A program made the position numbers and the translations under genes. From the UHGV virus genome UHGV-0041830: a stretch of 15,804 nt of DNA, one strand, 5' to 3'. Positions within the stretch are counted from its first letter, which is position 1. The number at the start of each line of letters is the position of its first letter. The notes beneath the pieces were generated by a model, which worked only from the letters and a program-made list of their open reading frames with translations, was not told where the DNA came from and searched no databases. Positions 1,079 to 15,804 of the stretch are shown here, in pieces. This DNA comes from a virus.

Positions 1079-1824
1079 TTGATACCGAAAAGGCCTTTGA
1101 ATATATCGCCGGCGCGCCACAGGAGCAGAAGGATAATCCGCTTATTAATATTCTGGAGAAGTTTTCCAGCTGGTATGACACGAATAACGTGACACTGGGC
1201 GGTGTCAAAATTCCGCACCTTTTCCCTGGTGATGATCTGAAACTACAGACTGCGCAGGATTCAGACAATGGATTTTCTGCGCTTGAACAGGCGCTGCTGC
1301 GGTATATCGCCGCCGGTCTTGGCGTTTCCTACGAACAGTTGTCCCGTGATTACTCGAAGGTCAGTTACTCAAGTGCCCGCGCCTCCGCCAATGAGTCGTG
1401 GCGCTATTTTATGGGGCGGCGAAAATTTATTGCGTCCCGGCTGGCCACGCAGATGTTTTCCTGCTGGCTGGAAGAGGCACTTCTTCGGGGGATTATTCGT
1501 CCGCCACGGGCACGTTTTGATTTTTATCAGGCGCGATCAGCCTGGTCACGGGCAGAGTGGATTGGTGCCGGAAGAATGGCCATTGACGGGCTCAAGGAAG
1601 TCCAGGAATCAGTGATGCGCATTGAGGCCGGACTGAGCACGTATGAGAAAGAGCTGGCGCTGATGGGCGAGGATTATCAGGACATTTTCCGCCAGCAGGT
1701 CAGGGAATCTGCAGAGCGGGAAAAAGCCGGACTCTCACGTCCGGTGTGGATAGCGCAGGCGTATCAGCAGCAGATAGCGGAGAGTCGCAGGCCGGAAGAG
1801 GAGACAACACCACGTGAGACGTAA
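1079..1824 (+). CDS. B: Portal protein gpB, C-terminal part on post-gap segment
   Basis: In-frame continuation of the portal sequence (codon boundary at 1081), stop TAA 1822-1824. The first ~78 codons repeat the last codons before the gap. Confidence 0.9.
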
Positions 1825-3297
1825 TCTTTCACACATTATTGCAGCAGCATTCAATGAACCGCTGCTTCTGGAGCCCGCCTATGCGCGGGTTTTCTTTTGC
1901 GCGCTGGGGCGCGAGATGGGGGCAGCAAGTCTTTCGGTACCACAACAGCAGGTACAGTTTGATGCTCCCGGAATGCTGGCTGAAACGGACGAGTACATGG
2001 CCGGAGGTAAACGACCGGCCCGTGTTTACCGGGTGGTGAACGGTATTGCGGTACTGCCGGTGACCGGCACGCTGGTGCACCGGCTGGGTGGTATGCGGCC
2101 ATTTTCCGGAATGACAGGCTATGACGGCATTGTCGCCTGTCTTCAGCAGGCAATGGCGGATAGCCAGGTGCGGGGCGTACTGCTGGACATTGACAGTCCG
2201 GGCGGGCAGGCCGCCGGCGCGTTTGACTGCGCTGACATGATTTACCGCCTCCGTCAGCAGAAGCCGGTCTGGGCACTGTGCAATGACACGGCCTGTTCTG
2301 CAGCCATGCTGCTGGCGTCGGCCTGCTCCCGACGGCTGGTTACCCAGACATCCCGTATCGGTTCCATTGGCGTGATGATGAGCCATGTCAGCTATGCCGG
2401 TCATCTGGCGCAGGCCGGTGTGGATATCACGCTGATTTACTCAGGGGCGCACAAGGTGGATGGCAATCAGTTTGAAGCGTTGCCGGCAGAGGTTCGCCAG
2501 GACATGCAGCAGCGGATTGATGCGGCGCGCCGGATGTTTGCCGAAAAAGTGGCGATGTATACCGGTCTGTCTGTTGATGCAGTCACGGGAACAGAGGCCG
2601 CTGTTTTTGAAGGTCAGTCCGGCATTGAGGCCGGGCTGGCGGATGAATTAATCAATGCGTCGGATGCCATCAGTGTGATGGCCACGGCGCTGAACAGTAA
2701 TGTCAGAGGAGGCACTATGCCGCAATTAACTGCAACGGAAGCCGCCGTGCAGGAGAACCAGCGAGTGATGGGGATCCTGACATGCCAGGAAGCGAAAGGA
2801 CGTGAACAGCTTGCCACGATGCTGGCAGGACAACAGGGCATGAGCGTTGAACAGGCCCGGGCGATTCTGGCCGCGGCGGCACCGCAGCAGCCGGTGGCAT
2901 CCGCGCAGAGTGAAGCCGATCGCATTATGGCGTGTGAAGAAGCGAACGGTCGTGAACAACTGGCGGCAACGCTGGCGGCGATGCCGGAGATGACGGTGGA
3001 AAAAGCCCGCCCGATCCTGGCGGCTGCACCACTGGCGGATGCCGGGCCCTCGCTTCGTGATCAGATCATGGCCCTGGATGAGGCAAAAGGGGCAGAAGCG
3101 CAGGCTGAAAAACTGGCGGCCTGCCCGGGAATGACCGTGGAGAACGCCCGGGCTGTGCTGGCTGCGGGATCAGGTAAGGCAGAACCGGTCTCTGCATCCA
3201 CAACCGCCATGTTTGAACATTTCATGGCGAACCATTCACCGGCAGCGGTACAGGGTGGCGTGGCACAGACGTCAGCAGACGGTGATGCGGACGTGAA
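1814..3297 (+). CDS. C: Prohead protease/scaffold gpC (ClpP/S49-like serine peptidase family), 3' side cut by N10 gap
   Basis: GTG start at 1814 overlapping the portal stop by 11 nt. N-terminus RRNLSHIIAAAFNEPLLLEPAYARVFFCALG resembles lambda C (MTAELRNLPHIASMAFNEPLMLEPAYARVFFCAL...). C-terminal third carries Nu3-like repeats. Confidence 0.88.
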
Positions 3298-3307
3298 NNN
3301 NNNNNNN
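3298..3307. other. Assembly gap (N10); flanks 2988-3297 and 3308-3617 are ~310-bp near-identical copies
   Basis: Run of 10 n. Post-gap sequence agatgacggtggaaaaagcccgcccgatcctgg... repeats 2988 onward with roughly 8% substitutions. Confidence 0.95.
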
Positions 3308-3639
3308 AGATGACGGTGGAAAAAGCCCGCCCGATCCTGGCTGCTTCACCGCAGGCGGATGCCGGACCATCACTCCGTGATCAGATCATGGCACTGGATG
3401 AGGCAAAAGGGGCTGAGGCGCAGGCTGAACAGCTGGCTGCCTGCCCGGGAATGACAGTGGAGAGCGCCCGGGCTGTGCTGGCTGCGGGATCAGGTAAGGC
3501 CGAACCGGTCTCTGCATCCACAACCGCCCTGTTTGAACATTTCATGGCGAATCATTCACCGGCAGCGGTGCGGGGTGGCGTGTCACAGACGTCAGCAGAC
3601 GGTGATGCGGACGTGAAAATGCTCATGGCCATGCCATGA
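3308..3639 (+). CDS. nu3: 3' end of gpC / Nu3 scaffolding region (post-gap segment, 5'-partial)
   Basis: Codon boundary at 3310, stop TGA 3637-3639. Translation (...LRDQIMALDEAKGAEAQAEQLAACPGMTVESARAVLAAG...ADGDADVKMLMAMP) matches the pre-gap C tail and the lambda C/Nu3 C-terminus. Confidence 0.78.
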
Positions 3640-3675: not shown

Positions 3676-4023
3676 ATGGTGACGAAAACCATCACTGAAC
3701 AGCGTGCGGAAGTACGTATTTTTGCCGGTAATGATCCGGCTCATACCGCCACAGGCAGCAGCGGGATTTCCTCGCCAACACCGGCACTGACGCCCCTGAT
3801 GCTGGATGAAGCCACCGGGAAACTGGTGGTCTGGGATGGACAGAAAGCCGGTAGTGCGGTTGGCATACTGGTACTGCCGCTTGAAGGCACAGAGACGGTG
3901 CTGACCTATTACAAGTCGGGGACCTTTGCGACGGAGGCAATCCGCTGGCCTGACAGTGTGGATGAACACAAAAAGGCAAATGCCTTTGCCGGCACAGCCC
4001 TGAGTCACGCGGCTCTGCCGTAA
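3676..4023 (+). CDS. D: Head decoration protein gpD
   Basis: 115 aa. GAGG Shine-Dalgarno ~10 nt upstream of ATG. Motifs NDPAHTATG, TPLMLD, KLVVWDG, AVGIL, YKSGTF, KANAFAGTA match lambda D (110 aa). Confidence 0.92.
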   Translation: MVTKTITEQRAEVRIFAGNDPAHTATGSSGISSPTPALTPLMLDEATGKLVVWDGQKAGSAVGILVLPLEGTETVLTYYKSGTFATEAIRWPDSVDEHKKANAFAGTALSHAALP

Positions 4024-4080
4024 CACGTTATCAGGCCACCATGGTGACCTGACTGATTTCTGAATGAAAGGAACTGATTT

Positions 4081-5109
4081 ATGGGATTGTTTACGACCCG
4101 CCAGTTACTCGGTTATACCGAACAAAAAGTTAAATTTCGTGCGCTGTTTCTGGAGCTGTTTTTCCGCCGTACGGTGAATTTCCACACCGAAGAGGTGATG
4201 CTGGACAAAATTACCGGAAAAACGCCGGTGGCGGCCTATGTCTCCCCGATCGTTGAAGGAAAAGTGCTTCGCCATCGCGGTGGTGAAACCCGCGTGTTAC
4301 GTCCGGGCTACGTCAAGCCGAAACACGAATTTAATTACCAGCAGGCGGTTGAGCGCCTTCCTGGTGAAGATCCGGCTCAGCTGAACGACCCGGCCTACCG
4401 TCGTCTGCGTATCATTACCGATAACCTCAAACAGGAAGAGCACGCCATTGTCCAGGTGGAAGAAATGCAGGCGGTGAATGCCGTGCTGTATGGCAAATAC
4501 ACCATGGAAGGGGATCAGTTTGATACTGTCGAGGTGGATTTCGGGCGCTCTGAAGGAAATAACATTGAGCAGGCTGACGGTAAAAAATGGTCTGAGCAGG
4601 ACCGTGATACGTTTGATCCGACGCATGATATTGACCTCTACTGCGATCAGGCCAGCGGCCTTGTGAATATCGCCATTATGGACGGTACGGTCTGGCGTCT
4701 GCTGAATGGCTTTAAGCTGTTCCGCGAAAAACTGGATACCCGTCGCGGCTCAAATTCACAACTCGAAACGGCAGTGAAAGATCTGGGCGCAGTGGTGTCC
4801 TTCAAGGGGTATTACGGCGATCTGGCCATTGTGGTGGCGAAAACGTCTTATGTGGCAGAGGACGGTACCGAAAAACGTTATCTGCCGGAGGGCATGCTGG
4901 TGTTGGGGAATACGGCGGCAGAGGGGATTCGTTGCTATGGTGCCATTAAGGATGCACAGGCGTTGTCTGAAGGAGTGGTGGCTTCTTCCCGTTACCCGAA
5001 ACACTGGCTGACCGTGGGCGATCCGTCCTGTGAATTCACCATGACGCAGTCCGCTCCGCTGATGGTGCTGCCGGATCCGGATGAGTTTGTGGTGGTACAG
5101 GTGAAATAA
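4081..5109 (+). CDS. E: Major capsid protein gpE
   Basis: 342 aa (lambda E 341 aa). AAAGGA RBS. Long identical stretches to lambda E (YVSPIV, PGYVKPKHE, DPAYRR, IVQVEEMQAV, KLDTRRGSNS, LETAVKDLG, TMTQSAPLM, LPDPDEFV). Confidence 0.95.
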   Translation: MGLFTTRQLLGYTEQKVKFRALFLELFFRRTVNFHTEEVMLDKITGKTPVAAYVSPIVEGKVLRHRGGETRVLRPGYVKPKHEFNYQQAVERLPGEDPAQLNDPAYRRLRIITDNLKQEEHAIVQVEEMQAVNAVLYGKYTMEGDQFDTVEVDFGRSEGNNIEQADGKKWSEQDRDTFDPTHDIDLYCDQASGLVNIAIMDGTVWRLLNGFKLFREKLDTRRGSNSQLETAVKDLGAVVSFKGYYGDLAIVVAKTSYVAEDGTEKRYLPEGMLVLGNTAAEGIRCYGAIKDAQALSEGVVASSRYPKHWLTVGDPSCEFTMTQSAPLMVLPDPDEFVVVQVK

Positions 5110-5117
5110 TCCGTGAG

Positions 5118-5146
5118 CGGGGGCGAAATGCCCCCGTGTCTTTTTT
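5118..5146 (+). terminator. Intrinsic-terminator-like hairpin downstream of the major capsid gene
   Basis: Stem CGGGGGC (5118-5124), loop GAAAT, stem GCCCCCG (5130-5136), then TGTC followed by TTTTTT (5141-5146), 9 nt after the E stop codon. Confidence 0.5.
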
Positions 5147-5160
5147 CACAGGAGGCTGAG

Positions 5161-5544
5161 ATGGCAACAAAAGAAGAAAATCTGAATCGTCTTCGTCAAC
5201 TGGCTGACCTGCTGGGGCGCGAGGCGGATATGTCGGGGAGTGCTGCGGATATTGCTCAACGTGTGTCTGAGTGGGAAGAGGAGCTTGCTGTTTCCCCGGA
5301 GGGCATTATGCACTCTGATGAGAGCGGGGCTGATCAAAATCACACAGACGATGGTGAGCAGTTGAACAACACGGATGCTCCGGATGATGTTAAAGCCGTC
5401 CGGGTACGGAAGTGCCTGCAAGTAATGGGGTATTGCCCGGAGACAGGTCGTCCCGTTGAGCTGGCGTTACGGGGTATGCGTGTTCTGGTGCCATCATCAC
5501 TGGCAACGGCCATGATACAGCACGGAACGGCTGAATATGCGTGA
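5161..5544 (+). CDS. FI: DNA packaging / head assembly protein FI
   Basis: ATG at 5161 preceded by AGGAGG. Size and position match lambda FI (132 aa). The ORF-track start at 5113 would read through the terminator hairpin and is not used. Confidence 0.8.
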   Translation: MATKEENLNRLRQLADLLGREADMSGSAADIAQRVSEWEEELAVSPEGIMHSDESGADQNHTDDGEQLNNTDAPDDVKAVRVRKCLQVMGYCPETGRPVELALRGMRVLVPSSLATAMIQHGTAEYA

Positions 5545-5890
5545 TTTTCAGAATGCCTTTGATGCTGCCCTCGCCGGGGTAGACAGTACGATCGTTGAAG
5601 TGATGGGGCTCTGTGCGCAGTTCACCTCGGGGGCACAGTGTGGCAGCGAAGTTCAGGGGGTTTTTGATGATCCGGAGTCGCTGGGGTTTGCCGGTGGCGG
5701 GGTCCGTATTGAAGGAAGCAGCCCGTCATTATTTGTGCGGACGGATACGGTTCGTGCCGTGCGGCGTGGTGACACGCTGACCATTAATGGTGAGATATTC
5801 TGGGTGGATCGTGTTTCTCCGGATGACGGGGGCAGCTGTTATCTCTGGCTCAACCGTGGTCAACCACCCGCAGTTAACCGGCGACGATAA
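5537..5890 (+). CDS. FII: Head-tail connector / head completion protein FII
   Basis: 117 aa, same length as lambda FII. GVFDDPE, GVRIEGSSPSLFVRTD, RRGDTLTI, FWVDRVSPDDGGSC, LWL, PPAVNRRR all match. Start overlaps the FI stop by 8 nt. Confidence 0.92.
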   Translation: MRDFQNAFDAALAGVDSTIVEVMGLCAQFTSGAQCGSEVQGVFDDPESLGFAGGGVRIEGSSPSLFVRTDTVRAVRRGDTLTINGEIFWVDRVSPDDGGSCYLWLNRGQPPAVNRRR

Positions 5891-5905: not shown

Positions 5906-6439
5906 ATGGCGATAAAAGGGCTTGATCAGGCGATTGACAATCTGAGCCGGGTTCGTAAAAACGCCATTCCGGCGGCTTCAGCAATGGCCATTAACCGCGT
6001 GGCCACAACGGCGATTAATCAGTCTTCATCACAGGTTGCCCGGGAGACAAAGGTTCGCCGGAAACTGGTTAAGGAACGGTCCAGACTGAAACGGGCGACG
6101 GTCAGAAATCCGAATGCCAGAATTATCGTTAACCGCGGTGATCTCCCTGTGATTAAGCTGGGGATCAGGATGCTGGGGCGTCGCCCGAACAGCATACTTA
6201 AAGCCGGTCAGCATCGGTATCAGCGGGCATTTATTCAGAGATTAAAAAATGGTCGCTGGCATGTCATGCAGCGTGTGGCCGGGAAAAACCGTTACCCCAT
6301 TGATGTGGTGAAAATCCCGATGGCGGCCCCACTGAAACAGGCATTTGATGAGAATGTTGACCGTATCCGGCGTGAACGCCTGCCTAAAGAACTGGCATAC
6401 GCGCTGAAACAACAACTGAGGATTGCAATAAAACGATGA
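5906..6439 (+). CDS. Z: Tail completion protein Z
   Basis: 177 aa basic protein in the lambda Z position between FII and U. AGGGTG RBS. Stop overlaps the U start (ATGA). Confidence 0.88.
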   Translation: MAIKGLDQAIDNLSRVRKNAIPAASAMAINRVATTAINQSSSQVARETKVRRKLVKERSRLKRATVRNPNARIIVNRGDLPVIKLGIRMLGRRPNSILKAGQHRYQRAFIQRLKNGRWHVMQRVAGKNRYPIDVVKIPMAAPLKQAFDENVDRIRRERLPKELAYALKQQLRIAIKR

Positions 6440-7604: not shown

Positions 7605-8036
7605 ATGTTTCTGAAAACAGAACAATTTGAATATAACGGTGTGTCTGTCACGCTTTCCGAATTGTCTGCGCTGCAGCGTATCGAGCATCTTGCCCTCCTG
7701 AAACGGCGTGCAGAACAGGCAGAATCCTGCGGCAACCTGCAGGTAAGCGTGGAAGATCTCGTCAGAACCGGCGCGTTTCTGGTGGCGATGTCCCTGTGGC
7801 ATAACCATCCACAGAAAACGCAGTCACCGTCAATGAATGAGGCCGTGATGAAGATAGAGCAGGAAGTGCTCACCACCTGGCCTGCCGATGCCATTGCCCG
7901 GGCGGAAGACGTGGTGTTGTGCCTGTCCGGGATGATCGAAGCTGTTCGTCCGGATACTGATATTACTGAAGTGGCGAAAAATAACACGCTGACTGATGAT
8001 GATTTTTCTGCGGGAAAGTCTTCGACGGCGAGCTGA
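7605..8036 (+). CDS. G: Tail assembly chaperone G
   Basis: 143 aa (lambda G 140 aa). GGAGG RBS. The C-terminus contains the slippery heptamer G_GGA_AAG in the zero frame. Confidence 0.9.
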   Translation: MFLKTEQFEYNGVSVTLSELSALQRIEHLALLKRRAEQAESCGNLQVSVEDLVRTGAFLVAMSLWHNHPQKTQSPSMNEAVMKIEQEVLTTWPADAIARAEDVVLCLSGMIEAVRPDTDITEVAKNNTLTDDDFSAGKSSTAS

Positions 8037-8476
8037 ACTTTGCCCTCAGACTGGCGCGTGAGATGGGGAGACCCGACTGGCGCGCCATGCTTGCCGGGAT
8101 GACATCCACCGAATATGCCGACTGGCACCGTTTTTACCGCACGCATTATTTTCAGGATACCCAGCTGGATATGCATTTTTCCGGGCTGACGTACGCTGTA
8201 CTCAGCCTGTTTTTTTGCGATCCGGATATGCATCCCTCTGATTTCAGTCTGCTTGTCCCCCGGCATGAGGAAGAGCAGGTGGAGAGGCCGGATGAGGACA
8301 AAATGCTGATGCAGAAAGCGGCAGGACTTGCCGGAGGCGTCCGGTTCGGTGGGGACGGAGGGCGCGATATTTTATCGTCTGCGGATGTGGCGGATGTCAT
8401 GGTGGATGATGCCGCATTAATGATGGCTTCAGCGGGGATTCCGGGAGGTGTGAGATATGTCCCAGCCGGTTGGTGA
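7605..8476 (+). CDS. T: Tail assembly chaperone G-T fusion made by programmed -1 ribosomal frameshift (join 7605..8018, 8018..8476)
   Basis: Slippery site GGGAAAG at 8012-8018 with GGA and AAG as zero-frame codons. The -1 frame is open from 8018 to TGA at 8474-8476 and encodes KVFDGELNFALRLAREMGRPDWRAMLAGMTSTEYADWHRFY... Same arrangement as lambda G/T. Confidence 0.85.
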
Positions 8477-11030
8477 TCTTGTTATTGACCTGAGTCTGGA
8501 TGCTGTCCGTTTCGATGAGCAGATGAGCCGGGTAAGGCGTCATTTTTCAGGTCTGGATACCGACGCCAGAAAAACCGCCAGTGCTGTTGAACAGGGCCTG
8601 AGCCGCCAGGCGCTGGCTGCACAAAAAGCCGGGATTTCCGTCGGGCAGTATAAAGCGGCCATGCGAACCCTGCCCGCACAGTTTACGGATATCGCCACGC
8701 AGCTTGCCGGTGGTCAGAATCCCTGGTTGATCCTGCTGCAACAGGGCGGTCAGGTGAAGGACTCCTTCGGCGGGATGATCCCCATGTTCAGGGGGCTTGC
8801 CGGTGCGATCACCCTGCCGATGGTCGGGGTCACCTCGCTGGCGGTGGCGACAGGTGCGCTGGCGTACGCCTGGTACCAGGGCGACGCCACGCTTTCAGAA
8901 TTTAATAAAACGCTGGTCCTTTCCGGCAATCAGGCCGGACTGACTGCCGATCGTATGCTGACGCTCTCAAGAGCCGGGCAGGCAGCAGGGCTGACGTTTA
9001 ACCAGGCGAGAGAGTCACTGGCAGCCTTGGTGAATGCCGGTGTGCGTGGTGGTGAACAGTTTGATGCCATCAACCAGAGTGTCGCGCGTTTTGCGTCTGC
9101 ATCCGGTGTGGAGGTGGATAAAGTCGCTGAAGCCTTCGGGAAGCTGACCACTGACCCGACGTCGGGACTGATGGCGATGGCGCGCCAGTTCCGTAACGTG
9201 ACGGCAGAGCAGATTGCGTATGTTGCACAGCTGCAGCGTTCCGGAGACGAGGCCGGGGCATTGCAGGCGGCGAACGATATCGCCACGAAAGGCTTTGATG
9301 AGCAGACCCGTCGCCTGAAAGAAAACATGGGAACACTGGAGACCTGGGCGGATAAAACAGGGAAGGCATTCAAATCGATGTGGGATGCCATTCTGGATAT
9401 CGGTCGTCCGGAATCCTCAGCGGATATGCTCGCCAGTGCGCAGAAGGCATTTGATGAGGCGGATAAAAAATGGCAGTGGTACCAGAGCCGGAGCCAGCGC
9501 CGGGGAAAGACCTCCTCTTTTCGTGCGAACCTTCAGGGGGCATGGGATGACCGGGAAAATGCCCGTCTGGGTCTGGCAGCGGCCACGCTGCAGTCGGATA
9601 TGGAAAAAGCCGGTGAACTGGCGGCAAGGGACAGGGCTGAGCGTGAGTCGTCACAGCTGAAGTATACCGGAGAGGCGCAGAAGGCGTATGAGCGCCTGCA
9701 GACGCCGCTGGATAAATATACCGCCCGTCAGAAAGAGCTGAATAAGGCCCTGAAAGACGGAAAAATCCTGCAGGCGGATTACAACACGCTGATGGCGTCG
9801 GCAAAAAAGGATTATGAATCGACGCTGAAAAAGCCGTCAGGTGTGAAGGTGTCTACCGGTGAGCGCCAGGAAGACCGGGCGCATGCAGCCCTGCTGGCGC
9901 TTGAAACCGAGCTCAGGACGCTGGAAAAACACAGCGGTGTGAATGAGAAAATCAGCCAGCAGCGCCGGGATTTATGGGAAGCGGAAAGTCAGTATGTGGT
10001 CCTGAAAGAGGCCGCCACGAAACGGCAGTTATCTGAGCAGGAAAAATCCCTGCTGGCTCATGAGAAAGAGACGCTGGAGTACAAACGCCAGCTGGCTGAG
10101 CTGGGAGACAAGATTGAACACCAGAAGCGGCTGAATGAGCTGGCACAGCAGGCGGCGCGGTTTGAACAGCAGCAAAGCGCGAAGCAGGCGGCAATCAGCG
10201 CAAAAGCCCGCGGCCTCACCGACCGTCAGGCGCAGCGGGAGTCGGAAGAGCAGCGCCTTCGTGAGGTGTACGGTGATAATCCGGCTGCGCTGGCGAAGGC
10301 CACATCGGCACTGAAGAACACCTGGTCTGCGGAGGAGCAGCTTCGTGGAAGCTGGATGGCCGGGATGAAGTCCGGCTGGGGAGAGTGGGCGGAAAGTGCG
10401 ACGGACAGTTTTTCGCAGGTTAAAAGTGTGGCCACGCAGACCTTTGACGGTATTGCACAGAATATGGCGGCGATGCTGACCGGCAGCGAACAGAACTGGC
10501 GGGGATTCACCCGTTCCGTGCTGTCCATGATGACAGAAATTCTGCTTAAGCAGGCAATGGTGGGGATTGTCGGGAGTATCGGCAGCGCTATTGGCGGGGC
10601 TGTTGGTGGCGGCGCATCCGCGTCAGGCGGTACAGCCATTCAGGCCGCTGCGGCGAAATTCCATTTTGCAACCGGAGGATTTACGGGAACCGGCGGCAAA
10701 TATGAGCCAGCGGGGATTGTTCACCGTGGTGAATTTGTCTTCACAAAGGAGGCAACCAGCCGGATTGGCGTGGGGAATCTCTATCGGCTGATGCGCGGCT
10801 ATGCCACCGGTGGTTATGTCGGTACACCGGGCAGTCTGGCTGACAGCCGGTCGCAGGCGTCCGGGACGTTTGAGCAGAATAACCATGTGGTGATTAACAA
10901 CGACGGCACGAACGGGCAGATAGGTCCGGCTGCTCTGAAGGCGGTGTATGACATGGCCCGCAAGGGTGCCCGTGATGAAATCCAGGCACAGATGCGCGAT
11001 GGTGGTCTGTTCTCCGGAGGTGGACGATGA
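8457..11030 (+). CDS. H: Tail tape measure protein H
   Basis: 857 aa (lambda H 853 aa). Long near-identical runs to lambda H (PVGDLVIDLSLDA, GISVGQYKAAMR, NPWLILLQQGGQVKDSFGGMIPMFRGLAGAITLPMVG, the C-terminal glycine-rich segment GGFTGTGGKYEPAGIVHRGEFVFTKEATSRIGVGNLYRLMRGYATGGYVG). Start overlaps the T-frame end by 20 nt. Confidence 0.95.
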   Translation: MSQPVGDLVIDLSLDAVRFDEQMSRVRRHFSGLDTDARKTASAVEQGLSRQALAAQKAGISVGQYKAAMRTLPAQFTDIATQLAGGQNPWLILLQQGGQVKDSFGGMIPMFRGLAGAITLPMVGVTSLAVATGALAYAWYQGDATLSEFNKTLVLSGNQAGLTADRMLTLSRAGQAAGLTFNQARESLAALVNAGVRGGEQFDAINQSVARFASASGVEVDKVAEAFGKLTTDPTSGLMAMARQFRNVTAEQIAYVAQLQRSGDEAGALQAANDIATKGFDEQTRRLKENMGTLETWADKTGKAFKSMWDAILDIGRPESSADMLASAQKAFDEADKKWQWYQSRSQRRGKTSSFRANLQGAWDDRENARLGLAAATLQSDMEKAGELAARDRAERESSQLKYTGEAQKAYERLQTPLDKYTARQKELNKALKDGKILQADYNTLMASAKKDYESTLKKPSGVKVSTGERQEDRAHAALLALETELRTLEKHSGVNEKISQQRRDLWEAESQYVVLKEAATKRQLSEQEKSLLAHEKETLEYKRQLAELGDKIEHQKRLNELAQQAARFEQQQSAKQAAISAKARGLTDRQAQRESEEQRLREVYGDNPAALAKATSALKNTWSAEEQLRGSWMAGMKSGWGEWAESATDSFSQVKSVATQTFDGIAQNMAAMLTGSEQNWRGFTRSVLSMMTEILLKQAMVGIVGSIGSAIGGAVGGGASASGGTAIQAAAAKFHFATGGFTGTGGKYEPAGIVHRGEFVFTKEATSRIGVGNLYRLMRGYATGGYVGTPGSLADSRSQASGTFEQNNHVVINNDGTNGQIGPAALKAVYDMARKGARDEIQAQMRDGGLFSGGGR

Positions 11031-12161: not shown

Positions 12162-12905
12162 ATGACAGAGACAGAATCAGCGATTCTGGCGCACGCCCGG
12201 CGATGTGCGCCAGCGGAGTCGTGCGGCTTCGTGGTAAGCACGCCGGAGGGGGAAAGATATTTCCCCTGCGTGAATATCTCCGGTGAGCCGGAGGCGTATT
12301 TCCGGATGGCTCCGGAGGACTGGCTGCAGGCAGAGATGCAGGGTGAGATTGTGGCGCTGGTCCACAGTCATCCCGGTGGTCTGCCCTGGCTGAGTGAGGC
12401 CGACCGGCGGCTGCAGGTGCAGAGTGATTTGCCGTGGTGGCTGGTCTGCCGGGGGGCGATTCATAAGTTCCGCTGTGTGCCGCATCTCACCGGGCGGCGC
12501 TTTGAGTACGGGGTGACAGACTGTTACACACTGTTCCGGGATGCTTACCATCTGGCGGGGATTGAGATGCCGGATTTTCATCGCGGGGATGACTGGTGGC
12601 GTCACGGTCAGAATCTCTATCTTGACAATATGGAGGCTACTGGTTTTTACCGTGTCGCACTGACAGAGGCGCAGCCGGGCGATGTGCTGCTGTGCTGTTT
12701 TGGTTCATCGGTGCCGAATCACGCCGCCATTTACTGCGGCGACGGTGAGCTGCTGCACCATATTCCTGAACAACTGAGTAAACGAGAGAGGTATACCGAC
12801 AAATGGCAGCGACGCACACACTCCCTCTGGCGTCACCGGGAATGGCACGCATCTGCCTTTACGGGGATTTGCAACGATTTGGCCGCCGCATCGACCTTCG
12901 TGTGA
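12162..12905 (+). CDS. K: Tail tip assembly protein K, JAB/MPN (JAMM) metalloprotease-like plus NlpC/P60 domains, full-length reading
   Basis: ATG at 12162 is 4 nt after the L stop, open to TGA at 12903-12905. JAMM motif HSHPGGLPWLSEAD (12364-12403) with upstream ESCG (12206-12217). Cys in VTDCYTLF and His residues downstream fit an NlpC/P60 core. The shorter reading from the internal ATG at 12306 is about 199 aa. Confidence 0.82.
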   Translation: MTETESAILAHARRCAPAESCGFVVSTPEGERYFPCVNISGEPEAYFRMAPEDWLQAEMQGEIVALVHSHPGGLPWLSEADRRLQVQSDLPWWLVCRGAIHKFRCVPHLTGRRFEYGVTDCYTLFRDAYHLAGIEMPDFHRGDDWWRHGQNLYLDNMEATGFYRVALTEAQPGDVLLCCFGSSVPNHAAIYCGDGELLHHIPEQLSKRERYTDKWQRRTHSLWRHREWHASAFTGICNDLAAASTFV

Positions 12906-13444
12906 AAACGGGGGCTGAAGCCATCCGGGCACTGGCCACACAGCTCCCGGCGTTTCGTCAGAAACTGAGCGATGGCTGGTATCAGGTACGGATTGCCGGG
13001 CGGGATGCAGGAGAAACCGAATTATCATCCCGTCTTAATGAGCCGCTGGCAAATGGTGCCGTGATCCACATCGTGCCGCGTCTTGCGGGAGCAAAAAGTG
13101 GCGGTGTGTTTCAGGCGGTGCTGGGTGCGGCGTTGATTGCTACGGCAATCTGGATGCCGGGGATCAGTATCGCTTTCAGTGACATTCTCTTTTCAATGGG
13201 TGCGGCGATGACGCTTGGTGGTGTGGCGCAGATGCTGGCACCGAAAGCCAGAACTCCCCGTACACAGACAACGGATAACGGCAAACAGAACACCTATTTC
13301 TCCTCACTGGATAACATGGTTGCCCAGGGCAATGTCCTGCCTGTTCTGTACGGTGAAATGCGCGTGGGGTCACGTGTGGCATCTCAGGAGATCAGCACGG
13401 CAGATGAAGGGGATGGTGGTCAGGTTGTGGTAATTGGGCGGTAA
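12803..13444 (+). CDS. I: Tail tip assembly protein I (variant allele), N-terminal ubiquitin-like domain ending in Gly-Gly
   Basis: 213 aa. N- and C-terminal thirds match lambda gpI. The central segment (DAGETELSSRLNEPLANG...AVLGAALIATAIWMPGISIAFSDILFSMGAAMTLGG) differs from the second copy at 14195-14775. Overlaps K by 103 nt. An alternative start at ATG 12842 is possible. Confidence 0.85.
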   Translation: MAATHTLPLASPGMARICLYGDLQRFGRRIDLRVKTGAEAIRALATQLPAFRQKLSDGWYQVRIAGRDAGETELSSRLNEPLANGAVIHIVPRLAGAKSGGVFQAVLGAALIATAIWMPGISIAFSDILFSMGAAMTLGGVAQMLAPKARTPRTQTTDNGKQNTYFSSLDNMVAQGNVLPVLYGEMRVGSRVASQEISTADEGDGGQVVVIGR

Positions 13445-13517
13445 TATTATTTTACTCATGTTCTAACTAATTTAATATTTATATCGAACACTGATAATTA
13501 TTCTATTGGTTAGCTAT
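13445..13517 (+). promoter_or_regulatory. AT-rich putative promoter/leader of the inserted lipoprotein gene
   Basis: Extremely AT-rich 73 bp. Candidate -35 TTTAAT (13471-13476) and -10 GATAAT (13493-13498) with 16-bp spacer. Weak, unvalidated prediction. Confidence 0.3.
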
Positions 13518-13856
13518 ATGAACAAAACGATTTTATTCTGCACGATTATTGCCTTAACAGGATGTAAATCTTTGGATTACGTAAAATCCGGAAAACCTGT
13601 AATGGAAGGTAATTCATTAAAAAATATTGATGAATTGTCAGGCTGCATATCCAGACAATGGGCTGGTAATGGAACACCTATAACATCCCTTCCTATTGAG
13701 AATGGGGTAAGCCTTTTAGTTCCACAGGCTATGGGGGGATATGATGTTGTGCTTGATATCAAAAAAGCAGGAAATGGCAGTAGTTTTACTCTTTATGAAC
13801 GTGTACCAGCATTAACGCCAAAAATTTTTGCTGATAGTGTTAATGCATGTAAATAA
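13518..13856 (+). CDS. Predicted outer-membrane lipoprotein of unknown function (moron inserted between tail genes I and J)
   Basis: 112 aa. N-terminus MNKTILFCTIIALTG|CKS is a textbook signal peptidase II signal: basic n-region, hydrophobic core, lipobox L-T-G-C, and Lys (not Asp) at +2 after the lipidated Cys. Two further Cys residues. Tandem TAA TAG stops. ~36% GC against GC-rich flanks. Start could alternatively be TTG 13506. Confidence 0.75.
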   Translation: MNKTILFCTIIALTGCKSLDYVKSGKPVMEGNSLKNIDELSGCISRQWAGNGTPITSLPIENGVSLLVPQAMGGYDVVLDIKKAGNGSSFTLYERVPALTPKIFADSVNACK

Positions 13857-13880
13857 TAGTTAATCCTGTCGTAACTCATG

Positions 13881-13908
13881 AGCCGCCTTTTGGGCGGCTT
13901 TGTTGTTT
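13881..13908 (+). terminator. GC hairpin plus T-tract between the moron and J (conserved in the second I-J junction)
   Basis: AGCCGCC (13881-13887), loop TTTTG, GGCGGCT (13893-13899), then TTGTTGTTT. Lies 14 nt upstream of the J ATG. Confidence 0.45.
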
Positions 13909-13922
13909 ATGGAGTGTGAGGA

Positions 13923-14184
13923 ATGGGTAAAGGAAGCAGTAAGGGGCATACCCCGCGCGAAGCGAGGGACAACCTGAAGTCCACGCAGCTGCTGAGTGTG
14001 ATCGATGCCATCAGCGAAGGGCCGGTTGAAGGTCCGGTGGATGGATTAAAAAGCGTGCTGCTGAACAGTACGCCGGTGCTGGACAGTGAGGGGAATACCA
14101 ATATATCCGGTGTCACGGTGGTGTTCCGGGCAGGTGAGCAGGAGCAGACACCGCCGGAGGGATTTGAATCCTCCGGCTCCGAGA
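13923..14184 (+). CDS. J: Central tail fiber / tip attachment protein J, N-terminal 87 codons (copy 1, cut by N10 gap)
   Basis: MGKGSSKGHTPREARDNLKSTQLLSVIDAISEGPVEGPVDGLKSVLLNSTPVLDSEGNTNISGVTVVFRAGEQEQTPPEGFESSGSE matches the lambda J N-terminus almost exactly. GAGGA RBS. Confidence 0.92.
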
Positions 14185-14194
14185 NNNNNNNNNN
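14185..14194. other. Assembly gap (N10) joining a segment ending in J to a segment beginning inside the K/I overlap
   Basis: Run of 10 n. Post-gap sequence accttcgtgtgaaaacgggggctgaagcc... corresponds to 12894 onward, so this is not a simple overlap: the following segment is an alternative copy of the I-J locus. Confidence 0.95.
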
Positions 14195-14775
14195 ACCTTC
14201 GTGTGAAAACGGGGGCTGAAGCCATCCGCGCACTGGCCACACAGCTCCCGGTGTTTCGTCAGAAACTGAGCGACGGCTGGTATCAGGTACGGATTGCCGG
14301 GCGGGACGTCAGCACGTCCGGGTTAACGGCGCAGTTACATGAGACTCTGCCTGATGGCGCTGTGATTCATATTGTTCCCAGAGTCGCCGGGGCCAAGTCA
14401 GGTGGCGTATTCCAGATTGTCCTGGGGGCTGCCGCCATTGCCGGATCATTCTTTACCGCCGGAGCCACCCTTGCAGCATGGGGGGCAGCCATTGGGGCCG
14501 GTGGTATGACCGGCATCCTGTTTTCTCTCGGTGCCAGTATGGTGCTCGGTGGTGTGGCGCAGATGCTGGCACCGAAAGCCAGAACTCCCCGTACACAGAC
14601 AACGGATAACGGCAAACAGAACACCTATTTCTCCTCACTGGATAACATGGTTGCCCAGGGCAATGTTCTGCCGGTTCTGTACGGTGAAATGCGCGTGGGG
14701 TCACGCGTGGTTTCTCAGGAGATCAGCACGGCAGACGAAGGGGATGGTGGTCAGGTTGTGGTGATTGGTCGCTGA
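14195..14775 (+). CDS. I: Tail tip assembly protein I (lambda-like allele), 5'-truncated by gap
   Basis: Codon boundary at 14197, stop TGA 14773-14775. Central segment DVSTSGLTAQLHETLPDGAVIHIVPRVAGAKSGGVFQIVLGAAAIAGSFFTAGATLAAWGAAIGAGGMTGILFSLGASMVLGG matches lambda gpI as I recall it. Confidence 0.88.
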
Positions 14776-14793
14776 TGCAAAATGTTTTATGTG

Positions 14794-14820
14794 AAACCGC
14801 CTCCGGGCGGTTTTATCGTT
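14794..14820 (+). terminator. GC hairpin plus T-tract upstream of J (second copy)
   Basis: AAACCGCC (14794-14801), loop TCCG, GGCGGTTT (14806-14813), perfect 8-bp stem followed by TATCGTTT. Same position relative to the J start as 13881-13908. Confidence 0.45.
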
Positions 14821-14835
14821 TATGGAGCATGAGGA

Positions 14836-15220
14836 ATGGGTAAAGGCAGCAGTAAGGGGCATACCCCGCGCGAAGCGAAGGACAACCTGAAATCATCCCA
14901 GATGCTGAGCGTGATAGACGCCATCAGCGAAGGGCCGGTTGAAGGTCCGGTGGATGGATTAAAAAGCGTGCTGCTGAACAGTACGCCGGTGCTGGACAGT
15001 GAGGGGAATACCAATATATTCGGCGTCACGGTGGTGTTCCGGGCCGGTGAGCAGGAGCAGACTCCGCCGGAGGGATTTGAATCCTCCGGCTCCGAGACGG
15101 TGCTGGGTACGGAAGTGAAATATGACACGCCGATCACCCGGACCATCACGTCGGCAAACATCGACCGTCTGCGCTTTACCTTCGGTGTGCAGGCACTGGT
15201 GGAAACCACCTCAAAGGGGG
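14836..15220 (+). CDS. J: Tail tip attachment protein J, N-terminal part (copy 2, pre-gap)
   Basis: Near-identical to 13923-14184 and to the lambda J N-terminus. Continues ...TVLGTEVKYDTPITRTITSANIDRLRFTFGVQALVETTSKG. Confidence 0.92.
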
Positions 15221-15230
15221 NNNNNNNNNN
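15221..15230. other. Assembly gap (N10); flanks 15128-15220 and 15231-15323 are 93-bp near-identical copies within J
   Basis: Run of 10 n. cgccgatcacccggaccatcacgtcggcaaacat... is present on both sides with substitutions. Confidence 0.95.
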
Positions 15231-15804
15231 CGCCGATCACCCGGACCATCACGTCGGCAAACATTGACCGTCTGCGTTTTACTTTCGGCGTGCAGGCACT
15301 GGTGGAAACCACCTCAAAGGGGGACAGGAATCCATCGGAAGTCCGCCTGCTGGTTCAGATTCAACGTAACGGTGGCTGGGTGACGGAAAAAGACATCACC
15401 ATTAAGGGCAAAACCACGTCGCAGTATCTGGCCTCGGTGGTGGTGGATAACCTGCCGCCGCGCCCGTTTAATATCCGGATGCGCAGGATGACGCCGGACA
15501 GCACCACAGACCAGTTGCAGAACAAAACGCTCTGGTCGTCATACACCGAAATCATCGATGTGAAACAGTGCTACCCGAACACGGCACTGGTCGGCGTACA
15601 GGTGGACTCGGAGCAGTTCGGCAGCCAGCAGGTGAGCCGTAATTATCATCTTCGCGGGCGCATTCTGCAGGTGCCGTCGAACTATAACCCGCAGACGCGG
15701 CAATACAGCGGTATCTGGGACGGAACGTTTAAGCCAGCATACAGCAACAACATGGCCTGGTGTCTGTGGGATATGCTGACCCATCCGCGCTACGGCATGG
15801 GGAA
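15231..15804 (+). CDS. J: Tail tip attachment protein J, continuation, 3'-partial at window edge
   Basis: Codon boundary at 15233. Translation ...PITRTITSANIDRLRFTFGVQALVETTSKGDRNPSEVRLLVQIQRNGGWVTEKDITIKGKTTSQYLASVVVDNLPPRPFNIRMRRMTPDSTTDQLQNKTLWSSYTEIIDVKQCYPNTALVGVQVDSEQFGSQQVSRNYHLRGRILQVPSNYNPQTRQYSGIWDGTFKPAYSNNMAWCLWDMLTHPRYGMG matches lambda J residues ~100-300. Confidence 0.92.

What the first reader, a model, noticed from the sequence alone, without database searches (positions are those of the whole stretch)
5118..5146. Strong terminator-like hairpin between major capsid gene E and FI
A 7-bp all-G/C stem (CGGGGGC / GCCCCCG) with GAAAT loop is followed by TGTC and TTTTTT, 9 nt after the E stop, and then by the AGGAGG RBS of FI. 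A partial intrinsic terminator or stabilising 3' hairpin here would raise E transcript abundance relative to downstream genes, which fits capsid stoichiometry. It also argues against the long upstream FI start at 5113, which would have to be translated through the hairpin.
Basis: seen in the sequence. Interest (0 to 1): 0.35.

Follow-up and report, generated by a model that had tools for sequence, protein, structure and literature searches.

The report
Terminator-type hairpin after capsid gene E
A real terminator-shaped RNA hairpin sits just after the major capsid gene of a phage 21-like prophage; it is a well-placed example of a known but functionally untested feature of lambda-like phages.

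Summary
A perfect 7-bp G/C stem (5118-5124 / 5130-5136, loop GAAAT) lies between E (stop 5107-5109) and FI. It folds at -17.7 kcal/mol (z -3.1). The fold extends to 5115-5140, so the U6 run (5141-5146) abuts the stem directly. A motif this good occurs once in the window and in 2 of 300 shuffles.

It is not peculiar to this phage. All 34 distinct spacers I examined after E-family capsid genes carry a GC-rich hairpin a median of 9 nt after the stop codon. These include lambda, N15, phi80, Gifsy-1, enterobacterial prophages and Chi-like phages. The hairpin sequences are unrelated between clades, and a close relative shows a compensatory G-C to A-U change.

The N15 GenBank record already calls its counterpart a "putative rho-indep. 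transcription terminator". Casjens and colleagues describe such intra-operon terminators as having unknown roles.

Q21-modified polymerase blocks terminator hairpins, and ribosomes stopping 5-8 nt upstream repress termination. I therefore favour read-through followed by 3'-end protection of the D-E mRNA, plus stopping of unmodified polymerase. Partial termination is less likely. None of this has been tested.

The FI start is ATG 5161, not GTG 5113. The finding is ordinary and of low novelty.

The parts
4081..5109 (+). Major capsid protein gene E (342 aa), stop TAA 5107-5109. The hairpin belongs to its 3' end.
   Evidence: ORF list. Pfam PF03864 Phage_cap_E, 1.8e-65. 94% protein identity to the major capsid gene of phage 21-type coliphages (D2, ev017); the phage 21 record matches the E 3' end-FI region at 89% DNA identity.
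5118..5136 (+). Core hairpin: 7 G/C pairs, CGGGGGC / GCCCCCG, loop GAAAT (5125-5129).
   Evidence: Base-pair probability is about 1 in the ensemble. Natural variants keep the pairing: G5122A with C5132T in L184/L185, and C5118T giving U:G in L046.
5115..5140 (+). Extended stem predicted by the minimum-energy fold (G5117:U5137, bulge G5138, A5116:U5139, G5115:C5140).
   Evidence: -17.7 kcal/mol. Prediction only. The lower pairs are weak and are not seen in the centroid of the longer fold.
5141..5146 (+). U6 tract. Release or trimming would be expected at about 5146-5149.
   Evidence: The 8 nt after the hairpin are T-enriched across the family (3.9 T against 2.2 upstream, n=34), but the tract is absent in some members.
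5150..5155 (+). Shine-Dalgarno sequence AGGAGG of FI, 5 nt before the ATG.
   Evidence: RBS annotated at the same place in phage 21. Mean unpaired probability 0.63 in the free RNA.
5161..5544 (+). FI (DNA-packaging protein, 127 aa). The true start is ATG 5161. The GTG 5113 and ATG 5128 in-frame starts lie inside the hairpin region and are not used.
   Evidence: GTG to GGG variants.

Best explanation
This is a genuine, selected RNA hairpin of the intrinsic-terminator type. It marks the 3' end of the major capsid gene inside the single late operon of a phage 21-like prophage. It is one instance of a hairpin found after essentially every E-family capsid gene.

Proposed mechanism (inferred, not shown):
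1. During lytic growth the late operon is transcribed by Q-modified RNA polymerase. Its RNA-exit 'nozzle' prevents the hairpin from forming in time to terminate.
2. Ribosomes finishing E cover the 5' arm, which starts 5-8 nt after the stop codon. Productive transcripts therefore read through into FI and the tail genes.
3. Once the RNA has left the polymerase and ribosome, the hairpin folds. When the long transcript is cut downstream, 3'-to-5' exonucleases stall at the hairpin.
4. The upstream D-E segment, which encodes the two most abundant head proteins, therefore outlives the distal message.
5. The same element, with its U6 tract, should efficiently terminate any polymerase that is not Q-modified and not closely followed by a ribosome. 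This keeps stray transcription out of the downstream genes, for example in the lysogen.

My confidence that it is a real, conserved terminator-type hairpin is about 0.9. The figure below is for the specific mechanism of read-through plus 3'-end protection as the main effect.
For: Anatomy and non-randomness.

Positional conservation with sequence turnover:
- 18 of 18 diverse E-family phages that have a gap after the capsid gene carry a hairpin there (best stem-loop in the gap -11 to -26 kcal/mol; spacer z -1.3 to -4.9). Most D-E gaps in the same loci are unstructured.
- Every one of the distinct spacers from GTDB genomes has a hairpin.
- Over 34 distinct spacers the perfect core stem measures -9.6 to -24.2 kcal/mol, median -13.8.

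Pairing is maintained:
- A compensatory G-C to A-U change in L184/L185 and a U:G wobble in L046.
- UA to CG changes in the lambda clade, covariation 0.171 against 0.112 in shuffles.

The hairpin follows E rather than FI. Trabulsiella and Chi-like phages have a different downstream gene but still have the hairpin.

The hairpin is universal, while the U-tract is dispensable (Trabulsiella, Cedecea and phages of high-GC hosts). This points to an RNA-level role as the common denominator.

Q21 blocks terminator hairpins over tens of kilobases (bioRxiv 10.1101/651190). Termination is repressed when the stop codon is 5-9 nt from the hairpin (PMC4824070), and the median distance in this family is 9 nt. 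Strong terminators raise upstream transcript abundance about 2.2-fold (PMC11696848, abstract).
Against: - I found no transcript 3'-end or half-life data for this phage or for lambda in the searchable library.
- From memory, unverified here: Sampson, Hendrix, Huang and Casjens (PNAS 1988) attributed the differences in lambda late protein yields mainly to translation initiation. If so, any mRNA-level effect may be small.
- The T-enrichment after the hairpin suggests that termination competence itself is under some selection, which a pure stabiliser would not need. The T-rich stretch could equally serve FI translation initiation.
- Many ordinary terminators also sit close to stop codons, so the short distance is not diagnostic.
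- The spacers compared are phylogenetically related, so the counts overstate independence.
Confidence: 0.45

Rival explanations
1. Partial terminator acting on late (Q-modified) transcription. A fixed fraction of polymerases stops at 5146-5149, so E mRNA exceeds FI and tail mRNA. This would resemble T7 T-phi after gene 10 and is the first reader's main idea.
For: - Full terminator anatomy with U6 abutting the extended stem.
- T-enriched tails across the family.
- Casjens and colleagues list partial termination as one possibility (PMC8022706).
Against: [quoted passage not shown]
- The stop codon is 5-8 nt from the hairpin, a distance at which a model terminator lost nearly all activity under coupled translation.
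- Several family members lack any U-tract.
- All essential tail genes lie downstream in the same operon.
Confidence: 0.2
2. Insulator only. It matters solely for polymerases that are not antiterminated, such as spurious or read-in transcription in the lysogen or before Q acts. It has no effect on productive late mRNA levels.
For: - This is the second possibility named for P22-like phages (PMC8022706).
- The element is strong enough to stop unmodified polymerase.
- The prophage is widespread in E. coli (1563 of 5426 genomes hold a match to the E 3' end-FI region; 268 records at 99% identity or more), so time in the lysogenic state is long.
Against: - It does not explain why the hairpin sits specifically after the capsid gene in virulent Chi-like phages, which have no lysogenic state.
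- It does not explain why members without a U-tract keep the hairpin.
- Untranslated stray transcripts would be stopped by Rho anyway (general knowledge).
Confidence: 0.2
3. Translational control of FI. Sequences flanking the hairpin pair with the FI Shine-Dalgarno sequence, so FI translation is damped or coupled to ribosomes finishing E.
For: The fold of the whole spacer pairs 5110-5116 with 5146-5153. Lambda, N15 and phi80 show comparable pyrimidine-to-SD pairings in their folds.
Against: - In the ensemble the SD is mostly open (mean unpaired probability 0.63). It becomes less open (0.34), not more, when a ribosome is modelled on the E stop codon.
- The pairing is not conserved in the closest variant, L185.
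- The centroid structure contains only the hairpin.
- Pyrimidine-rich tails pair with purine-rich SDs by default.
Confidence: 0.07
4. Chance inverted repeat with no function.
For: G/C-rich hairpins of similar stability occur inside coding regions of the window. The weak terminator-like pattern is common (24 found against 13 expected).
Against: The strict motif appears in 2 of 300 shuffles. A hairpin is present in 34 of 34 distinct spacers with unrelated sequences. Compensatory changes are seen.
Confidence: 0.03

Closest known systems
Putative rho-independent terminators annotated inside the late operon of coliphage N15 (GenBank AF064539), after genes 7, 8 (major head), 13 (major tail) and 20
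   Same: Same position, immediately after the E-family major capsid gene and before the FI homologue. Same anatomy: 7-bp GC-rich stem, short loop, T-rich tail. Same operon logic.
   Different: The hairpin sequence is unrelated (GTGGCCC-ATTC-GGGCCAC). N15 has a weaker T-tail (CTTTCTGG) than the U6 here. The window has no comparable hairpin after D or V.
Lambda E-FI spacer hairpin (ATGGCCC-TTCG-GGGCCAT, then TGTTTCTCTG)
   Same: Homologous junction. Hairpin 2 nt after the stop codon, then a T-rich stretch, SD and FI ATG, all within 41 nt.
   Different: Different stem sequence with a UUCG tetraloop. The GGCCC/GGGCC core is invariant across 18 lambda-clade spacers. The U-tract is interrupted, so it is a poorer terminator on paper than the one here.
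Intra-operon terminator after the procapsid gene module of P22-like phages (phage L; Casjens and colleagues, PMC8022706)
   Same: A predicted intrinsic terminator inside a single Q-type antiterminated late operon, after the coat-protein module. The authors state that such terminators are not unique and that their roles are not known.
   Different: Unrelated capsid gene family and unrelated sequence.
T7 T-phi terminator after gene 10 (major capsid)
   Same: A terminator immediately after the most abundant structural gene, with transcript abundance falling downstream (PMC6938266).
   Different: It acts on T7 RNA polymerase, no processive antiterminator is involved, and its partial termination is experimentally established. 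The resemblance is analogy, not homology.
   Same: A stable stem-loop 3' of the cistron needed in greater amount, proposed to block 3' exonucleases and give segmental mRNA stability.
   Different: Those are experimentally demonstrated, whereas this one is inferred. REPs are repeated genome-wide, whereas this hairpin is single-copy in the window.

Membership tests
Intrinsic (Rho-independent) terminator | G/C-rich stem of about 5-14 bp with a 3-8 nt loop | tested here: met
   7 perfect G/C pairs (up to 10 with the extension), 5-nt loop, -17.7 kcal/mol.
Intrinsic (Rho-independent) terminator | U-rich tract immediately (0-2 nt) 3' of the stem | tested here: met
   U6 at 5141-5146 directly follows the extended stem. 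If only the core stem forms, 4 nt (UGUC) intervene.
Intrinsic (Rho-independent) terminator | Enough free RNA between the last ribosome position and the hairpin for it to fold during coupled translation | tested here: inconclusive
   [quoted passage not shown] A model terminator was nearly inactive at 5-9 nt and maximal beyond 30 nt (PMC4824070). This is not measured for this element.
Intrinsic (Rho-independent) terminator | Transcript 3' ends or polymerase release at the U-tract, in vivo or in vitro | not testable with these tools
   I found no transcript-end data for this phage type.
Post-capsid-gene hairpin of E-family (lambda-like) late operons | A stable hairpin in the first roughly 20 nt after the stop codon of a Phage_cap_E gene, on the coding strand | tested here: met
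   34 of 34 distinct spacers, starting 1-22 nt (median 9) after the stop codon. The only exceptions are two Vibrio phages whose next gene overlaps the capsid gene.
Post-capsid-gene hairpin of E-family (lambda-like) late operons | Pairing maintained while the sequence changes | tested here: met
   G5122:C5132 becomes A:U in L184/L185. UA to CG in 3 lambda-clade spacers. Stem sequences are unrelated between clades. The covariation within clades is modest.
Intercistronic mRNA decay barrier (3' stabiliser) | Longer half-life of the upstream segment that depends on the stem | not testable with these tools
   Requires a rifampicin chase with stem mutants.
RNase III processing site (T7-type) | About 20 bp of near-continuous double-stranded RNA | tested here: not met
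   The stem is 7-10 bp. The length requirement is from general knowledge.
Any curated Rfam family | Score at or above the family's gathering threshold | tested here: not met
   No hit at gathering thresholds in the whole window. The best sub-threshold hits are 17 bits against 50 required and are chance.

The most novel reading that the evidence does not exclude
The element is a translation- and Q-gated conditional terminator, a quality-control checkpoint placed at the end of the most expensive late gene. Its hairpin starts within a ribosome footprint of the E stop codon. It would therefore stop only polymerases that are neither Q-loaded nor closely followed by a ribosome translating E. All productive transcripts would pass and later be capped with a protective 3' hairpin. 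The consistent placement (median 9 nt from the stop codon across 34 unrelated hairpin sequences) would then be the selected feature, rather than an accident of compact phage genomes.
Probability: 0.15. Interest if true: 0.45.

Novelty: new member of a known kind. Interest (0 to 1): 0.2.

Why it matters
The practical gain is modest. It fixes the FI start at 5161 and flags the same over-long-start error in the phi80 RefSeq record.

It also shows that the hairpin after the capsid gene is a near-universal feature of E-family phages despite sequence turnover, across lytic and temperate phages and many hosts.

The biological question behind it is what terminators inside Q-antiterminated late operons are for. 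Specialists have explicitly stated that this is open (PMC8022706). This hairpin, with a clean stem and a natural compensatory variant, would be a convenient test case. The answer is unlikely to overturn anything.

Tried and rejected
- Rfam at gathering thresholds and at permissive E-values gave nothing meaningful.
- Hairpin stability alone is not a discriminator. The element is only about 15th among 40-nt windows, and stronger folds lie inside coding regions.
- SD occlusion or translational coupling of FI is rejected as the main role. The SD is mostly unpaired and becomes less accessible when a ribosome is modelled on the E stop codon. The pairing is not conserved.
- An RNase III site is ruled out because the stem is too short.
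- A bidirectional terminator is unlikely. The upstream side is not A-rich, and the relaxed motif scan finds no minus-strand site.
- The search for related loci with single E proteins returned only relatives at least 98% identical, with almost invariant spacers. A 14-sequence alignment was too divergent to search with, and a 5-sequence alignment worked.
- Literature searches for direct transcript-end or mRNA-level data at the lambda E-FI junction found nothing usable. Liu et al. 2013 (lambda ribosome profiling) and the Casjens and Hendrix lambda review are not held. A re-analysis paper has no supplementary tables held.
- Covariation within the lambda clade is weak because the GGCCC/GGGCC core never varies. 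The stronger evidence is the turnover of hairpin sequences between clades.

Full report
**What is there**

The window is the head-tail region of a phage 21-like (Jouyvirus-type) lambdoid prophage. It contains:
- an S49 protease/scaffold gene, 1814..3313;
- the decoration gene D, 3676..4023;
- the major capsid gene E, 4081..5109;
- FI, 5161..5544, and FII, 5537..5890;
- tail genes downstream.

A 501-bp stretch spanning the E 3' end, the spacer and the start of FI has matches in 1563 of 5426 complete E. coli genomes.

The 51-nt E-FI gap reads TCCGTGAG-CGGGGGC-GAAAT-GCCCCCG-TGTC-TTTTTT-CAC-AGGAGG-CTGAG, followed by the ATG. The core stem begins 8 nt, not 9, after the stop codon.

**Is it more than chance?**

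- The 39-nt segment folds at -17.7 kcal/mol. Dinucleotide shuffles give -10.2 +/- 2.4 (z -3.1; 1 of 200 folds as well).
- The fold extends the stem to 5115-5140 with one bulge, so the U6 run abuts the stem. 'TGTC' is therefore not a spacer.
- It is the best of 24 terminator-like sites in the window.
- A strict version of the motif occurs once in the window and in 2 of 300 shuffled windows.
- Stability alone is not exceptional, at about 15th among 40-nt windows. The combination with a U-tract and an intergenic position is what stands out.
- Rfam has nothing here.

**Comparative evidence**

Phage 21 has the identical spacer up to the RBS, where it reads GGGGG for AGGAGG. In 80 close relatives the spacer is almost invariant. 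The few changes keep the pairing (C5118T gives U:G), apart from a single 1-nt deletion in the G run in L043, or else destroy the GTG at 5113.

Other lambdoid phages have a different hairpin at the same place:
- lambda: ATGGCCC-TTCG-GGGCCAT
- N15 and phi80: GTGGCCC-NNNN-GGGCCAC
- Gifsy-1: AAAGGCCTGA-TTC-AGGCCTTT

I then sampled the E family widely, including Chi-like Casjensviridae and phages of Aeromonas, Vibrio, Xanthomonas, Burkholderia, Xylella, Achromobacter, Rhizobium, Ruegeria, Erythrobacter and Synechococcus. I also included prophages from GTDB species representatives.
- Every locus with a gap after the capsid gene has a strong hairpin there: 18 of 18 phages. The best stem-loop in the gap measures -11 to -26 kcal/mol, and whole-spacer z-scores run from -1.3 to -4.9.
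- The D-E gaps of the same loci are mostly unstructured.
- Over 34 distinct spacers the perfect core stem measures -9.6 to -24.2 kcal/mol (median -13.8). It begins 1-22 nt (median 9) after the stop codon.
- Only two Vibrio phages, whose next gene overlaps the capsid gene, lack it.
- A relative with 94% identical E carries CGGGAGC/GCTCCCG, a compensatory G5122:C5132 to A:U change.
- In the lambda clade the five core pairs never vary, and the two basal pairs covary modestly.
- The spacer otherwise diverges to about 50% identity, while the flanking coding sequence stays at 63-93%.
- The hairpin goes with E, not with FI. Trabulsiella and the Chi-like phages have a different downstream gene and still keep it.
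- The 8 nt after the stem are T-enriched (3.9 against 2.2 upstream, n=34, sequences not independent). Several members have no U-tract at all.
- The window's hairpin is one of the most terminator-like of the set.

**What is already known**

- The N15 GenBank record annotates the equivalent stem-loop as a "putative rho-indep. transcription terminator". It annotates similar ones after the decoration, major tail and gene 20 genes.
- For P22-like phages, Casjens and colleagues note a predicted terminator after the procapsid module inside the single late operon. [quoted passage not shown] They suggest either partial termination or stopping of non-antiterminated transcription (PMC8022706).
- T7 places its only T7-polymerase terminator, T-phi, right after the capsid gene, and reads fall downstream of it (PMC6938266).
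- So the kind is known. This instance is not annotated in the phage 21 or PGAP records I read.

**How it most likely works**

Two lines of published evidence argue against efficient termination on productive late transcripts.
- Q21, the antiterminator of this phage type, forms a nozzle on the RNA exit channel. It sterically blocks terminator hairpins over tens of thousands of nucleotides (bioRxiv 10.1101/651190).
- In E. coli a model terminator lost nearly all activity when the stop codon lay 5-9 nt upstream, because the terminating ribosome covers the 5' arm. Efficiency fell from about 90% to under 10% at 5 nt (PMC4824070). Here the distance is 5-8 nt.

The hairpin, and not the U-tract, is the universal element. 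I therefore favour an RNA-level role. The transcript reads through and the hairpin folds afterwards. It then blocks 3' exonucleases and prolongs the life of the D-E segment.

This fits the report that strong terminators raise upstream transcript abundance about 2.2-fold (PMC11696848). The U6 tract additionally makes the element a competent stop for unmodified, uncoupled polymerase. These steps are inferred, and nothing here measures RNA.

From memory, unverified here: the classical lambda work of Sampson et al. (1988) assigned most of the differences in late protein yield to translation initiation. Any effect may therefore be modest.

**Rivals**

- Partial termination of Q-modified polymerase (0.2).
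- Insulation only (0.2).
- Control of FI translation (0.07). This is disfavoured because the SD is mostly open and becomes less open with a ribosome modelled on the E stop codon.
- Chance (0.03).

**FI start**

- FI homologues align from ATG 5161 while the upstream sequence is unrelated.
- Phage 21 and PGAP annotate that start.
- The Pfam FI profile begins at residue 3.
- GTG 5113 is GGG in four relatives.
- An in-frame ATG at 5128 sits in the hairpin loop and 3' arm and is likewise not a plausible start.

**Verdict**

The feature is real and clearly selected, and it belongs to a known kind whose function is untested. Interest is low.

Noticed in passing
L004 800-836 (phi80 NC_021190 7196-7232): The phi80 RefSeq record starts its FI homologue (gp08) at a GTG inside the post-capsid hairpin. 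The conserved ATG with a GGAG Shine-Dalgarno sequence is 36 nt downstream. This is the same over-long-start artefact as window 5113.
   Followed up: partly
L190-L205, L222, L226-L235, L238 (GTDB genome contigs): About 25 hits to lambda E lie on short contigs, several named with about 1x coverage, in assemblies of unrelated organisms (Neobacillus, Kitasatospora, Paenibacillus, Bradyrhizobium, an Akkermansia MAG, Prevotella and others). At least 14 of them have a spacer identical to lambda's. This looks like lambda DNA contamination of public assemblies.
   Followed up: no
window 8012-8087: The lambda-type G/T -1 slippery heptamer GGGAAAG is at 8012-8018 and the G stop codon at 8034-8036. The most stable 40-nt fold of the whole window (-25.6 kcal/mol) lies at 8052-8087, 33 nt downstream of the slip site and in the T reading frame. 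That is too far for a classical frameshift stimulator, and it is unexplained.
   Followed up: no
window 12803-15267: The tail end of the window is rearranged. There are two copies of tail assembly gene I (12803..13444 and 14086..14775). Between them lies a moron-like ORF, 13506..13856 (PHROG 914, unknown function), followed by a good terminator at 13880-13900. After the second copy there is only a 143-aa N-terminal fragment of the central tail fibre J (14836..15267). This suggests a recombination junction or a decaying prophage.
   Followed up: partly
window 5128-5130: An in-frame ATG preceded by GGGGG lies in the loop and 3' arm of the hairpin. It is sequestered by the stem, and the upstream extension it would encode is not conserved outside the phage 21 clade.
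   Followed up: partly
L239 (N15) 5980-6004, 9596-9613, 15307-15330: The N15 authors also annotated putative terminators after the decoration gene, the major tail gene and gene 20. The window has no comparable hairpin after D (gap 4024-4080, z -0.9) or after V (13-nt gap).
   Followed up: partly
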